Shown in pieces: positions 3,001 to 9,000 of a DNA stretch of 64,000 bases (its first letter is position 1; every line of letters begins with the position of its first letter). Position numbers: made by a program. The DNA lies in the NCBI GenBank assembly GCA_000002445.1, contig CP000071.1, positions 1 to 64,000 of the forward strand, given 5' to 3'. The stretch is from Trypanosoma brucei (Eukaryota).

Positions 3001-6000
3001 TTCACCACTAATATAAAAAAGTGGCTCATCAGACACTTCCAAATACAGCAGCAACCCACGGGACCGGAGTCGTAGCAGATAGAAAATTCCTGAGGTTGAC
3101 AAACGGATAACTAAGTAAACAAAAAATTACCATTAAACTCAACTACTCCAGCATGGCCGCTATTACAGAATGATGCCGCACCAGCTTTCTACTCAACAAC
3201 GGACAAACAACGACATTCGTCCAAACACCTTCCCGCTTAGTAGAATATGCTGCAGATGTTAATAGTCGTATTTATAGCAGCAGCGGTTCTCAGCACGGAA
3301 ACCGAAGCCAGCGCAGACGCAGCTGCACCCGCAATAGCTGACTCTTGCGATGAAGAACTGTACCTCACAAAGCTGAAGCGGCACATTCAGCTTCTGGCAA
3401 ACTCTTTCGAATCGACCATTAAGGAACAGCGAAGGGACAAGAAGAAATTCACAATAGCAGCGGCAGCATCAGAAAAGAAGAAAGAGAGGTGCTTACTAAA
3501 CGGGCTGGCGGCGCTTACAACAGCAGAATTGGAAGAAAATGAAAGACAGCAGGGCTCAATACGCCGAGCGGCAACGGCAGCAATAGGCGAGATAGAAAAG
3601 CAAGAGAAACTCGTAGCACGAGCAGGCCAGTTGTACCGACTAAAAACATCAATAGCCGCTGGCAACGTGCACGTGCGGTCGCCAGGCAACTCGCACGGCG
3701 TGAAATTAGTGCTAGCGACGACCGCCGAAGATGCCGACGGCTGCAGACCCCTTGACCCGGAAACAACAACACAAATAAAAGGGCAGAACATAGCGATCGC
3801 TAACTTGGTGTCGATCAAGCTCACTGACCCGGCGAAACTCGCCAAAACATTAGCAAAAGCGTATTTAAAGGCAACAGCAAGCAGCTCTTGCATCGGCGGC
3901 CCAAGCGAGGCGCCAAGCCAAAGCGCAGCGGCAGCGTTCAACTCATGCACATTCGGCAACGGCGACGCCAACCCATCGATTACCAGAACCAAGGCAACCT
4001 ATACGGAGGCAATGTCAACTGTAAATATCTTTACGTCGGGAAGCGTTAAAACTTGCCACTCAGATGTCGCAACAGCAGAGCCTGGCGCTACAGAAAACAA
4101 ACACCTAGGCAAACTACTGTGCGAAATACTAAAACACGCGTCAACACCCGTAAAAACCGAAATAAGCGGCCCAGCGGTTAGTAACAACAAGGAGCTACTT
4201 CAGGCTGTCGCGGCCTGCGATGCGAGGTACAAGGATATCGCAGATGCTACGGACCAAACCAAAAAGGGAGAACTAAAAAAATAAGTCACCGAAGCGTACG
4301 GCACGGACAATGCGAACTTCAAAAACATATTCGAAAATATAATCGATAAGAAAAACGTTCCAAGCAAAACAGGAGCAACAATGGGGACAAAAACAATCGG
4401 CCAAGTGACAACAGACACTGAAGCACAACAAATTCTAAGCCATTTGGAGCAACAAAGGTCAGCCAGAGAAGAAACAGCCAAACCAGCACCGACCCCAACA
4501 GCGGTAGATTCAAAAAAAGTAGAAGACTGCAAGGGCGAAAAAGACGAAACTAAGTGCAACAATAAGGATGGGTGTGAATTCAAAGATGGGGAGTGCAAAT
4601 CTAAAGTGACGACAACAGCAACAAGCACAACAAAAAACACCACAGCAAGCCATTCTTTTGTCATTAACAAGGCCCCTCTTTGCTTGCATTTTTTCTAATA
4701 GGATAAAACTTTTAGTTTTTTGCTTAAATTTTTGAAATTTATGAAACTTTGCTATTTTGGAAGAATTTGCTAGCATTTATTAAATTTGGTATACTTTAAA
4801 ACTTTTTGACAAACGCTTTCAAATTTCTGAAGACTTTTTAAAATTTTAATGTGTATGAAAGTAGAATAGGGTTATACGGCAGCAAGGTGATAGAACATAG
4901 AAAATGAGTACTGTTATCATTTGTTTTATTTTGTTTATTTTATGGATATTAGTTAGATTAATTACAGTATTATCAATAATCATAATAATAATGATAATAA
5001 TAGGAAAGTTTTTTGAGTGTGTATATAAGAATATTATAATAAGGGTGGTTTGGAGACTGAATGAACAACAAAAAAGAAGCACTTAAAACAGTTGTAGTGG
5101 TACAATAAAAGTAAACACAAAGAAAAGGGAGATTGAAAGAAGAATGTCGTGATGGACAGAATGACAGAAATGGAAATGGAATATGCACAATTTCATACAT
5201 AAACAAGAATATGGCACTGTAATACACAATAATATGATAGAGGGAACAATGGTGTAAAGACAAGGCGCAGTAGACGTGGTGCTGAAGTCGCTACGTTATT
5301 CGCAGTAATAGAGCCCACTAAGGACCATAAATGTTGACGTTTTAGATTTTGATGCAGAGCGGTTTGTTTTGCAATAAATGGATAACTCATCAAAAAATTA
5401 ATATATTTGTAATGAAATCTCCAGTTTTCTTAAGTTTTCTACCTTTTTTTCTATCTGATATTTGGTAGGTATATTAGGACATGACGTTTGGTACATCAGA
5501 GCTTTACTCTTACTTTTGCTATAACATTTAGTGTGCTTAAGCTCAATATATCAAGATTGTGGGGCTAATATTGAAAATTATTACAATTGAGATGGGAGTT
5601 TTGTATACTCATGCTAAGAGGCCTAAATGGGTTACGTAATTTTTAGAGAAACAGAATGCAAGTTGTGAGCATATTGTAATAACTACTGATGGATCTGATG
5701 CTATTGTTGCTAACACCGAGAAAAGTATGAAACTGCTGTGGAGTATGTTAGTCATGACAACATCAGAGTGTTATGCTCCTCAGTTTGATTTGCTCATGAA
5801 CTCAGATCACTTTGATCTGCAATCGCAATGTCACTGTTTTTTTAATGTGGGCTACAGAAAAGAAGAGGATAAAAAATTACATCATTTACTAAAATCAACT
5901 CAAAGTGCTAACACCTTATCTTAGTGGTGGTGGTGATTGATAGCCAGAGTCTGGGCTTTCACAAAATTTGAATATTAATTTGGAGAGTTATAAAAGAGAA

Positions 6001-9000
6001 GTGAGAAACATGTTTTAGAGCAGAGTATTTACAAACCATTGCTAATATTGAGTGTTACACAGGAAGAAGCTGTTGGACAGAAATCTGTTTTGAGGAGGGA
6101 GATGGTCGGATTGGATTAAAAAGAGATATTCTTTTCGATTCCCAATAGTGGTGAAGTCGAAGAGGCTCCATTCATTCATTTTCCAGGACAGCCCATTGCG
6201 TGGGAAGAGAAGGCAAAATTAATTGTGAAAAATATTTTTTGGTTTGAAGAGTTGAAAGAAAGCAATTTAGTACAATAGATTTAAGTGCAATTGAAACTTA
6301 TGTGATTGGTGGAGAGAAGTGGAATTTTGAATATGGGAATATTCGTGAAAAAAAAACAAAGCAAGAAATTTGTTCAAAGCTAATAAGCTATGAAAATTCC
6401 AGAAACGAGCACAATCCATGCAGTCACTTGCTTGCAGTACATGGCTGTCTTGTTTTTCTCACAATACTAGGAAGCGGTGGACAAACCCGCAGATGACAAA
6501 CTGGCAAAGGAAGCAGTCAAAGAAGCGACGTCGATAATCTTTTGGGGCCAAAGTATATACATCGATGAGCGAACCTTTTTCAGAGATATACAAGCATGGT
6601 AGTGAAGTTTCTAGCAACAAAATAAACGGGAAGTAACAGTAAAGACAAGCACCATGCACATAAACTAAACTTAAGTAAGGTAATGCACCTGTCTTGCACA
6701 GCACTGTTGTTTCAACAGTGGGCCGACCTTGAAGCCAATCAAGCACACCGGCCAATAAAAAAACGCAAAGGCCCAATATTAACCAAGCGTGGCCACAAAA
6801 GGCGTAAAAGGAACCAGGTATTGAAGGAAATAAAGATCGCATCTCGACGACGCCCAAGCACAAACGTTGTATTTTACTCCAGAACTGCAGCCGAAGAAGA
6901 GGTTTAAACAGAAAGAACACGTTAAGAGACAGAAAGTGCAAATTTCCATGCACGAAGAGTTTTTTAAAATTGGTTACAGAAGCAACAAAGAACTCATATA
7001 TTGGTGTAATAGACTGGAAATTTATATAAATTTGATAAAAATGAATTAAAACACAAGAATCAGTAGTTTAATCACCATTAGAAATCCGGTGGTGAAACAG
7101 CATGCAAGTTTATTACCTTTTTAAAAAGAAACATCCAAAAAATAGAGCGGCTTCGACTATCTTTTTTTTTTGAAAAATCTCGCCAATAAATAAAAGGGTA
7201 AAACCAGCATAAGGTGAAGCACACGAACCATAAAACCCAAATCAGAAACAAAGCAACGAACAATCCAATTACCAGCAGCATAAGACAAAGCGGCGGCTAA
7301 AGGATAACATGTCAACAAAAAAGCATTTAGTCAGCCTTATACATGTTTACGCCGCAGCCAGCATAAAAGAAAGCAATGCAGCAGCAGGCGAGGGCAAAAA
7401 CATCCGCGAATTCCACATCTTGTGCAGTTTAGTAGAGCTGTGCAAGAAAACACCTATAAACCTACCTGGTTCTTCTCTGTTGGATGACGACGTACGAGCA
7501 ATAGAGCTGGTAAACATGAGCGGCAGTACAGACGAATGGCAAAGCCAGTTTCCGACTACAGATAAGGTCAGCGGGGAAAAAAGCATAGACTGCGAAAAGC
7601 AACCAAAACAAATCAGCTGCCATGAAAAGTACGACAAGTGGCGTGCAACGCGAAAGGCCCTCGAGGCGGAACCTAACAAAGAAATCAAACAGACACCGGC
7701 CAAGGGTATACAGAACACAGCTTACGGACGCAGAATTCATATCCAGATAAATGACATAGCAAAAGAAGCTCAAGTCATTTATAACAACTACAAAGCTGAA
7801 ACGGCGCCAGTGCTAAACGGCATCAACGACAAACTGAGAATTCATTTCGGAGATGCGCTTTATGGCAAACAGGACAGGCCACTAGCCGGCGCCCCAGCAG
7901 ACAAGTGGCAAGCGAGCGGCACACGCAATAACGACTGCAAAGGCGCCAAGGCCGGAATTTCGCCGCGCGGCGACCTCTTCTGCTTATGCGCTCAAGACAC
8001 CACCATAGCAGAACACATGTGCGGCGACACAGTAACAGCGGCAGGAAGCAACTGGCTACTCGCAACAGTGGCCCCACTCATTGACGGCATGGCTTCCAAG
8101 TGCGCAGGAAAAGCAAAACCAACAATAACCGCAAGCTACATCAGACATGCGCTGGAAACATTCGACTCAGCACTAAAGTCGCACACCCAGGGCACAAAAG
8201 ATGCAGTCGTACTGGGCACACCGCACAGCAGCGGTGTATGCGGCGGCCAAGCAAGCGTAGCCTGCGTAGACTACACGGCCGCGGTCATGCCCAAAGAACA
8301 AGGCAAACACAACGACATAAAATGGTATAACGAATTGACTGACGCATCCAAGGCGCTTGACAATTACGCGGCCGCCATGGCAGAGGAGAAGGCGGCACAA
8401 ACAAAGATACAAAAACTTAAACAGGAGGCTAACCGCTTATTCCAGACGCTAAAAGTACAAGAACCAGCAGCAATTCCACCCATTTCGCAACTACCACGAA
8501 TAGACCCCCTAGAGTTGAAGAAAAAATGCGAGCAGTTCCACAACAAGTCAAAGGAATGCACAGAAAATGGTTGCAAATGGAAAGGTACTGATGAAACAAC
8601 TGGCACATGTGATGTAGATGAGACTAAAGTTACATCTCAGACAAACGCAGCAGGGACAGGAGAAGCATCAAACGAGGAAACAGCCACATCTGGATGCGCA
8701 AAACACAAAGATAAAACTGAGTGCGATGCTGACAAAAAAGACGACAAGCAAAATTGTGCATTTAGGAAGGGTAAAGATGTTGAAGATGACAAGGATACAG
8801 AAAAGTGCCGCTCTTCTGGTTTTCTCGTCAATAATAAATTGGTTCAGAGTATAGCTGCTGTTTTTGTGAGTTTGGTACCATCTTAAGAATTTTAAGCATT
8901 TCAGCTCGATTCTGTGAAATTTACTATCTTGAGAAAATTTTATAAATTAACTAAATTTGATATATATTAACATTTTTTGATGAAAATTTAAAATTAGAGA

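What the first reader, a model, noticed from the sequence alone, without database searches (positions are those of the whole stretch)
5560..6360. Two diverged copies of an unidentified ~800-bp coding-like element in equivalent array positions
5560-6360 and 39990-40860 are collinear paralogues. Both lie between a 70-bp repeat and the next VSG. They encode stop-interrupted peptides such as MGGLYSHVKRPRWVMEFLERQNASDDDVVITVDGSDVIV and ...CYAPQFDLLMNSDHFD..CHCFFNVGYR. I could not assign them to a family from memory. An ESAG3-like or other GRESAG pseudogene is one possibility. A repeated non-VSG passenger that travels with VSG cassettes would be worth identifying.
Basis: seen in the sequence. Interest (0 to 1): 0.5.

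Follow-up and report, generated by a model that had tools for sequence, protein, structure and literature searches.

The report
Two decayed ESAG3 pseudogenes in VSG array
The two repeated ~0.9-1.1 kb segments are dead copies of ESAG3, a trypanosome gene recently reported to encode a sugar-adding enzyme for the surface coat; such pseudogenes are already known to litter silent VSG arrays, so the finding is real but ordinary.

Summary
The segments at about 5571-6393 and 39787-40888 (+ strand) are collinear homologues (blastn E 6e-84 and 7e-39; 71-84% DNA identity). Each lies between a 70-bp repeat remnant and the next VSG in a Trypanosoma brucei-type subtelomeric VSG array.

Both are pseudogenes of ESAG3 sensu stricto. 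Their conceptual translations match the 368-aa ESAG3 proteins of bloodstream expression sites at E about 1e-119 (60-66% identity). They match the divergent GRESAG3-like relatives at only 20-32%.

- **Copy B** is full length, with 3 frameshifts and 5 in-frame stops.
- **Copy A** has firm homology only from residue 71. It has a gap of about 27 residues, 4 frameshifts and 4 stops.

Each copy is closer to functional ESAG3 (about 68-69%) than to the other copy (55%), and their flanks share nothing except 70-bp repeats. They are therefore independently decayed family members, not a local duplication.

ESAG3 was recently reported to be a GT-A O-glucosyltransferase for class B VSGs. My own model of ESAG3 best matches the LH3/PLOD3 glucosyltransferase domain.

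The literature already describes ESAG3 pseudogenes throughout subtelomeres and 3' of 70-bp repeats in expression sites BES7 and BES15. Verdict: already known, low interest.

The parts
5571..6393 (+). ESAG3 pseudogene, copy A. Corresponds to ESAG3 residues 71-368. Has a gap of about 27 residues (aa ~120-146; about 78 bp missing relative to copy B), 4 frameshifts (about 5913, 5936, 6259, 6366), in-frame stops at 5637, 5976, 5991 and 6117, and a terminal TGA at 6391-6393.
   Evidence: tblastn vs P0001 gives aa 71-325 at 5571-6263, 60% identity, E 6e-87. Frameshift-aware alignment. Stop and frameshift contexts read directly.
5520..5549 (+). Possible relic of the ESAG3 signal-peptide coding region of copy A. 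If real, it implies a deletion of about 120 bp (roughly aa 26-68) rather than a clean 5' truncation. Inconclusive.
   Evidence: Local alignment to 39812-39841 of copy B scores 32, against a shuffle mean of 19.9, sd 2.7 and maximum 32 in 200 shuffles. The match is collinear.
39787..40888 (+). ESAG3 pseudogene, copy B, full length (ESAG3 residues ~6-368). Has an ATG at 39787, 3 frameshifts (about 39901, 40215, 40597), in-frame stops at 40348, 40679, 40694 and 40787 plus one within a 3-codon insertion, and a terminal TAA at 40886-40888.
   Evidence: tblastn linked HSPs cover aa 7-368 at 39790-40885, E about 1e-127, with 74-77% identity over aa 42-276. Frameshift-aware alignment. Direct reading.
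4914..5102 (+). 70-bp repeat remnant upstream of copy A (5' boundary of its VSG cassette).
   Evidence: blastn with 70-bp repeat units from elsewhere in the window. Similarity to 38654-38768 and 42834-42955.
38654..38775 (+). 70-bp repeat remnant upstream of copy B.
   Evidence: Consensus pattern match at 38731-38768. blastn.
7309..8886 (+). Intact class B VSG gene (525 aa) downstream of copy A. A 16-mer-like 3'UTR element lies at 8958-8973.
   Evidence: Pfam VSG_B E 2.5e-74 and Trypan_glycop_C E 8.5e-23. 16-mer scan.
41073..42557 (+). Class B VSG pseudogene downstream of copy B. It is broken into many short ORFs and ends in a GPI-signal-like tail.
   Evidence: ORF list. VSG_B hits on fragments 41471-41851 and 41888-42148. 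C-terminal hydrophobic tail read in frame.

Best explanation
Both segments are non-functional pseudogenes of ESAG3 sensu stricto, the T. brucei-lineage expansion of family Fam53. The intact gene sits in telomeric bloodstream VSG expression sites. A 2026 preprint reports that it encodes a Mn2+-dependent GT-A O-glucosyltransferase that glucosylates class B VSGs. The two copies lie co-directionally inside two separate silent VSG cassettes of a subtelomeric array, between the 70-bp repeat and the VSG. They cannot make the enzyme. Shown here: each is riddled with substitution-type stop codons, frameshifts and (copy A) deletions. Each diverged independently from an ESAG3-like ancestor. Only the ESAG3-derived sequence and the 70-bp repeats are shared between the two loci. 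Inferred: they arrived by the recombination and gene-conversion traffic that moves sequence between expression sites and arrays. ESAG3 is reported as the one ESAG family that is not monophyletic by location, and ESAG3 pseudogenes 3' of the 70-bp repeats exist in BES7 and BES15. After arrival they decayed neutrally as passengers. Any cassette copied from its 70-bp repeat to the VSG 3' end would carry the pseudogene along.
For: Identity. Conceptual translation of copy B hits a 368-aa protein at E 3.2e-119. That protein's 90% cluster holds 15 members annotated ESAG3 from T. b. brucei and T. b. gambiense expression sites. tblastn places ESAG3 aa 7-368 on 39790-40885 and aa 71-352 on 5571-6343, and nowhere else in the window.

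Clade. Identity is 58-68% to BES ESAG3 proteins but only 20-32% to the full-length distant representatives found by an exhaustive HMMER search.

Pseudogene state. Copy B has 3 frameshifts and 5 stops. Copy A has 4 frameshifts, 4 stops in the firm part and about 27 residues deleted. The stops are point substitutions (TAA/TGA), not indel artefacts.

Catalytic residues. These are mostly still recognisable: D110 and D113 (DXXD), G215, G216, Q245 and H297 in both copies, with W242V in A and E244D and W345L in B (residue list from the preprint).

Independent decay. Over 269 shared codons, A matches ESAG3 at 185, B matches ESAG3 at 182, and A matches B at 149. Only 13 changes are shared by A and B, against 49 positions where only B differs from ESAG3 and 46 where only A differs. 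No flank homology exists beyond the 70-bp repeats.

Context. The window is a VSG array with ten 70-bp remnants, all on the + strand.

Literature. [quoted passage not shown] ESAG3 is 'also in VSG arrays' (PMC3607257). An ESAG3 pseudogene lies 3' of the 70-bp repeat in BES7 and BES15 (PMC2567434). ESAGs are monophyletic by location 'except ESAG3' (PMC3605285).

Fold. An AlphaFold model of ESAG3 (pLDDT 85.9) best matches the human LH3/PLOD3 glucosyltransferase domain (Foldseek E 9e-09). This agrees with the preprint.
Against: I could not fetch any T. brucei DNA or TriTrypDB annotation. The origin of the window (strain, chromosome) and the route by which the copies arrived therefore remain inference. 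Pfam has no ESAG3 model, so there is no family-profile confirmation. dN/dS between A and B is 0.40, not about 1. Part of their divergence therefore accrued under constraint, presumably between functional ancestors before inactivation, although the estimate is crude. Non-coding roles such as recombination homology or a transcript-level function are not excluded by sequence alone. The enzymatic function of ESAG3 rests on a single preprint.
Confidence: 0.93

Rival explanations
1. They are pseudogenes of the ancestral GRESAG3 / ESAG3-like clade (the chromosome-internal lineage conserved in other trypanosomatids) rather than of ESAG3 proper.
For: Same superfamily (Fam53). Distant family members are detectable with the copies as query.
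Against: Identity to BES ESAG3 is 58-68%. Identity to every full-length distant representative is 20-32%. All 15 members of the best-hit cluster are ES-type ESAG3.
Confidence: 0.03
2. A and B are products of a local segmental duplication of one VSG cassette within this array (true recent paralogues that moved together with their VSG).
For: Same order (70-bp repeat, element, VSG), same strand, and both downstream VSGs are class B.
Against: The downstream VSGs and all flanks share no detectable similarity. Spacings differ 2- to 5-fold. No disabling mutation is shared in position. Each copy is closer to functional ESAG3 than to the other copy, with only 13 shared derived residues against 49 positions where only B differs and 46 where only A differs.
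Confidence: 0.03
3. The copies are retained because they do something as DNA. They could be extra homology tracts that help align array cassettes with ESAG3 loci of expression sites, or donors for segmental conversion that diversifies functional ESAG3, in analogy to VSG pseudogenes.
For: Hertz-Fowler et al. noted that recombination breakpoints in expression sites coincide with ESAG3 loci and suggested a role in orienting sites before exchange (PMC2567434). [quoted passage not shown]
Against: Only 2 of about 10 cassettes in this window carry one. At 60-77% amino-acid identity to ESAG3, and 71-84% DNA identity between the two copies, they are poor substrates for homologous recombination. Copy A has lost large pieces. 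Nothing here tests recombination.
Confidence: 0.07
4. They are intact ESAG3 genes whose disruptions are sequencing or assembly errors.
For: Some frameshifts fall next to short A runs. Long-read assemblies of subtelomeres are error-prone.
Against: There are 9 in-frame stops created by base substitutions, a 78-bp deletion, loss of the first 70 codons in A, and only 60-66% protein identity to the functional gene.
Confidence: 0.01

Closest known systems
ESAG3 pseudogenes of T. brucei subtelomeres and expression sites, including those 3' of the 70-bp repeats in Lister 427 BES7 and BES15 (Hertz-Fowler et al. 2008, PMC2567434; Abbas et al. 2018, PMC6152948)
   Same: Same gene family and same disabled state. 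Same unusual position between the 70-bp repeat and the VSG. Same orientation as the VSG.
   Different: These copies sit in a silent array, not a telomeric expression site. I could not compare DNA directly with the BES7 or BES15 copies.
Functional ESAG3 (368 aa), reported as an octadecameric Mn2+-dependent retaining GT-A O-glucosyltransferase for class B VSGs (Zhong et al., bioRxiv 2026, doi 10.64898/2026.01.27.701950)
   Same: Collinear homology over the whole protein (copy B) or residues 71-368 (copy A). Codons for the DXXD motif, the Gly-rich loop, Q245 and H297 are still present.
   Different: No open reading frame. W242V in A (W242A abolishes activity in the preprint). E244D and W345L in B. 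H54 region missing in A. Located downstream, not upstream, of the 70-bp repeats.
GRESAG3 / ESAG3-like genes (ancestral Fam53 clade conserved in trypanosomatids)
   Same: Same superfamily and the same predicted GT-A fold.
   Different: Only 20-32% identical to the window copies. The literature describes them as chromosome-internal and mostly intact.
Human LH3/PLOD3 glucosyltransferase domain (PDB 6WFV, 6FXR and related entries)
   Same: Best structural match of the ESAG3 model (Foldseek E about 1e-08). GT-A fold with a DXXD metal site.
   Different: About 15% sequence identity. It is a collagen-modifying enzyme. This is relevant to the parent family only, not to the dead copies.

Membership tests
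ESAG3 sensu stricto (Fam53, ES-type clade) | Full-length collinear sequence homology to ES-encoded ESAG3, clearly closer than to the GRESAG3 clade | tested here: met
   E 3.2e-119. tblastn covers aa 7-368 (B) and aa 71-352 (A). Identity is 58-68% to 15 ESAG3 cluster members against 20-32% to full-length distant representatives.
ESAG3 sensu stricto (Fam53, ES-type clade) | GT-A catalytic signature: DXXD (D110, D113), G215-G216, W242, E244/Q245, H297 | tested here: inconclusive
   Present as relic codons. Both copies keep D110, D113, G215, G216, Q245 and H297. A has W242V and B has E244D (residue list). This is meaningless for activity because no ORF exists.
ESAG3 sensu stricto (Fam53, ES-type clade) | Intact ORF of about 368 aa with an N-terminal signal peptide (a functional gene) | tested here: not met
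   B has 3 frameshifts and 5 stops. A has 4 frameshifts, 4 stops, an internal gap of about 27 aa and the first ~70 codons lost or unrecognisable. They are therefore filed as pseudogenes of the family.
ESAG3 sensu stricto (Fam53, ES-type clade) | [quoted passage not shown] | tested here: not met
   Both lie downstream of a short 70-bp remnant, inside an array of at least 10 cassettes, with no other ESAG nearby. The literature says array and subtelomeric copies are common and mostly pseudogenes.
ESAG3 sensu stricto (Fam53, ES-type clade) | Expression and O-glucosyltransferase activity | not testable with these tools
   Needs RNA-seq, proteomics or biochemistry. Sequence predicts no active product.
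GRESAG3 / ESAG3-like ancestral clade | Closest similarity to the conserved chromosome-internal lineage | tested here: not met
   20-32% identity to full-length distant representatives P0017-P0030, against 58-68% to ES-type ESAG3.
Silent VSG cassette of a T. brucei subtelomeric array | 70-bp repeat upstream, VSG (pseudo)gene downstream, same strand | tested here: met
   70-bp remnants at 4914-5102 and 38654-38775. VSG_B genes at 7309-8886 and 41073-42557.

The most novel reading that the evidence does not exclude
ESAG3 pseudogenes lodged between the 70-bp repeat and the VSG may not be neutral debris. They could be preferentially linked to class B VSGs, the substrates of the ESAG3 glucosyltransferase. 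They could also serve as homology tracts or sequence donors for recombination with expression-site ESAG3 genes, so that a glycosylation-enzyme archive co-evolves with the antigen archive. Both copies here precede class B VSGs, but at least 5 of 9 typed VSGs in the window are class B, so two cases carry no statistical weight.
Probability: 0.06. Interest if true: 0.5.

Novelty: already known. Interest (0 to 1): 0.1.

Why it matters
It identifies the 'unidentified coding-like element' and closes the question. It is a routine component of T. brucei subtelomeres. The only new angle is that ESAG3 was recently reported as the VSG O-glucosyltransferase. The large pool of subtelomeric ESAG3 pseudogenes might therefore deserve a systematic look as a possible donor archive or as markers of traffic between expression sites and arrays. 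Nothing in these two copies argues for that beyond what is already published.

Tried and rejected
- **Pfam:** a scan of both conceptual translations gave no family (only a sub-threshold DUF7674 hit). Pfam has no ESAG3 model.
- **Exact-protein look-ups for trypanosome DNA:** the intact VSG, P0001 and P0010 all returned nothing. I therefore could not do DNA-level comparison with expression-site ESAG3, define the unit beyond the CDS, or identify the window's strain or chromosome.
- **PDB sequence search:** no ESAG3 entry found.
- **Flank homology:** segments between the 70-bp repeat and the element, and between the element and the VSG, had no similarity anywhere else in the window.
- **5' relic of copy A:** the search gave only a borderline match.
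- **Local duplication:** considered and rejected.
- **GRESAG3 membership:** considered and rejected.
- **Sequencing-error explanation:** considered and rejected.
- **Berriman et al. 2005:** this genome paper is not in the held library.
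Full report
**1. Observation**

- MGGLYSHVKRPRWVMEFLERQNASDDDVVITVDGSDVIV is in copy B.
- ...CYAPQFDLLMNSDHFD...CHCFFNVGYR is in copy A.

The regions align collinearly. blastn gives 5744-6346 vs 40230-40840 at 71% identity (E 6e-84) and 5566-5708 vs 39979-40120 at 84% (E 7e-39). The repeat finder independently reports 6110-6272 vs 40603-40765 as the only long dispersed direct repeat in the window; the one other direct family is the telomere-tract tandem repeat at 26318-26727.

**2. Context**

The window is a Trypanosoma brucei-type subtelomeric VSG array.
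- Large ORFs hit the Pfam models VSG_B, Trypan_glycop (A-type) and Trypan_glycop_C.
- 70-bp repeat remnants, all on the + strand, lie at about 1557-1711, 4914-5102, 9110-9148, 22262-22299, 31353-31417, 35264-35352, 38654-38775, 42837-42898, 45607-45764 and 61072-61117.
- The VSG 3'UTR 16-mer occurs seven times on the + strand.

Copy A lies between the 70-bp remnant at 4914-5102 and an intact 525-aa class B VSG at 7309-8886. Copy B lies between the remnant at 38654-38775 and a heavily disrupted class B VSG pseudogene at 41073-42557. The spacings differ, however. The 70-bp-repeat-to-element distance is about 470 bp for A and about 1010 bp for B. The element-to-VSG distance is 915 bp for A and 184 bp for B.

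**3. Identity**

- **Pfam.** No hit, because it has no ESAG3 model.
- **Protein search.** The conceptual translation of copy B returned one hit at E 3.2e-119, a 368-aa T. brucei protein. Its 90%-identity cluster holds 15 sequences. Eleven are annotated ESAG3, from T. b. brucei Lister 427 and TREU927 and from T. b. gambiense. The other four are old GenBank entries mislabelled 'variable surface glycoprotein' or 'variant-specific antigen'.
- **tblastn of this protein on the window.** ESAG3 residues 7-368 map to 39790-40885 as four linked HSPs in alternating frames (74-77% identity over residues 42-276). Residues 71-352 map to 5571-6343. Nothing significant appears elsewhere.
- **Exhaustive HMMER search.** Searching 1.84 billion representative proteins with ESAG3 found only 46 relatives. 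The full-length ones are 22-35% identical to ESAG3.
- **Clade assignment.** The window copies are 58-68% identical to the ES-type proteins but only 20-32% identical to those full-length distant relatives. Both are therefore ESAG3 sensu stricto, not the ancestral GRESAG3 clade.

**4. State of the copies**

A frameshift-aware protein-to-DNA alignment, checked against the raw sequence, gives the following.

| Feature | Copy B (39787-40888) | Copy A (firm from 5571, to 6393) |
|---|---|---|
| Coverage of ESAG3 | Full length; ATG at 39787, hydrophobic N-terminus | Residues 71-368; terminal TGA at 6391-6393 aligns with the ESAG3 C-terminus (NLFKANKL* vs NDLFKAKKL*) |
| Frameshifts | 3 (about 39901, 40215, 40597) | 4 (about 5913, 5936, 6259, 6366) |
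| In-frame stops | 40348, 40679, 40694, 40787, plus one inside a 3-codon insertion | 5637, 5976, 5991, 6117 |
| Deletions | None large | About 27 residues (aa ~120-146; about 78 bp missing relative to copy B) |

A 30-bp match of 5520-5549 to the signal-peptide region of copy B is collinear but borderline: score 32 against a shuffle mean of 19.9, sd 2.7 and maximum 32. Copy A either lost residues about 26-68 by deletion or is 5'-truncated.

The stops are base substitutions, so assembly indel errors cannot explain them. Both copies are AT-rich (34-35% GC) compared with 48% for the neighbouring VSGs.

**5. Relationship between the copies**

Over 269 codons aligned in all three sequences:
- A matches ESAG3 at 185.
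- B matches ESAG3 at 182.
- A matches B at only 149.
- A and B share a residue different from ESAG3 at 13 positions, against 49 positions where only B differs from ESAG3 and 46 where only A differs.

No disabling lesion is shared in position. The segments on either side of the ESAG3-derived part have no similarity to each other or to anything else in the window. The two are therefore independently decayed members of the family, not duplicates generated together with a cassette in this array.

Nei-Gojobori dN/dS between them is 0.40 (dS 0.72, dN 0.29). This suggests that part of the divergence arose between functional ancestors before inactivation. The estimate is crude.

**6. What the parent gene does**

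A 2026 bioRxiv preprint (doi 10.64898/2026.01.27.701950) reports that ESAG3 is a Mn2+-dependent, UDP-glucose-specific, retaining GT-A O-glucosyltransferase. It is required for O-glucosylation of the class B VSG3 and forms an octadecameric ring. The named residues are the DXXD motif D110/D113, G215-G216, W242, E244/Q245 and H297, plus interface residues H54 and W345.

As an independent check I modelled ESAG3 from an alignment of 26 family members (mean pLDDT 85.9, pTM 0.83) and searched the PDB. The top hits are the human collagen glucosyltransferase LH3/PLOD3 (6WFV, 6TEU, 6FXR and others; E about 1e-08), then mimivirus R699 and the UGGT catalytic domain. This agrees with the preprint.

In the pseudogenes, the codons for D110, D113, G215, G216, Q245 and H297 survive in both copies. 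A carries W242V, and W242A is inactive in the preprint. B carries E244D and W345L. None of this matters for activity, because neither copy has an open reading frame.

**7. Comparison with what is known**

[quoted passage not shown] - In Lister 427, BES7 and BES15 carry an ESAG3 pseudogene 3' of the 70-bp repeats. The 5' ESAG3 copy of most expression sites is itself a conserved pseudogene, and recombination breakpoints coincide with ESAG3 loci (PMC2567434).
- ESAGs are monophyletic by location 'except ESAG3' (PMC3605285).

The arrangement seen here (70-bp repeat, ESAG3 pseudogene, VSG) is therefore a known kind of thing in a known place.

**8. Mechanism**

Shown: the two elements are dead ESAG3 genes, in VSG orientation, inside two unrelated cassettes, and independently decayed.

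Inferred: they entered the cassettes through recombination traffic between expression sites and arrays, and now drift as passengers. A duplicative transposition that starts in the 70-bp repeat and ends at the VSG 3' end would carry such a pseudogene into an expression site. That would account for the BES7 and BES15 architecture.

Not excluded, but unsupported: a role as homology tracts or conversion donors for functional ESAG3. Only 2 of about 10 cassettes here carry one.

Both downstream VSGs are class B, the ESAG3 substrate class. At least 5 of the 9 typed VSGs in the window are class B, so this is not informative.

**9. Verdict**

This is already known biology. Interest is low.

Noticed in passing
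window 26195-26790 (context 24041-31400): An interstitial telomere tract of about 600 bp: (GGGTTA)n with degenerate variants such as GCGGGTTC, G-rich on the + strand. It follows an intact-looking VSG (24041-25522), its 3'UTR 16-mer (25584) and a T-rich telomere-proximal spacer. The array then continues with another VSG pseudogene (about 29356-30819) and a 70-bp remnant (31353). It looks like a fossil chromosome end that was healed or fused, or an assembly join.
   Followed up: partly
window 12529-17269 (-) and 53505-58251 (+): Two ingi-like retroelements (Pfam RVT_1 and RNase_H hits) form an inverted pair. They are 95-98% identical over about 4.7 kb, with arms about 36 kb apart, and bracket most of the window including copy B.
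   Followed up: partly
window 32272-33690 (+): A 472-aa ORF with a Galactosyl_T (PF01762) hit whose last ~40 residues already match the start of a VSG_B domain. It appears to be a subtelomeric UDP-Gal/GlcNAc-type glycosyltransferase gene abutting or overlapping the next VSG (33760-35078).
   Followed up: no
window 7309-8886 and 41073-42557: Both VSGs directly downstream of the ESAG3 pseudogenes are class B, the class reported to be O-glucosylated by ESAG3. With at least 5 of 9 typed VSGs in the window being class B, two cases are not significant.
   Followed up: partly
window 39031-39086: An (AAGATAG)8 microsatellite in the roughly 1 kb spacer between the 70-bp repeat and ESAG3 pseudogene copy B.
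   Followed up: no
window 3247-4284 (+): A 345-aa ORF in the cassette upstream of copy A has no Pfam hit at all, although it occupies the position where a VSG would be expected (70-bp remnant at 1557-1711 upstream).
   Followed up: no
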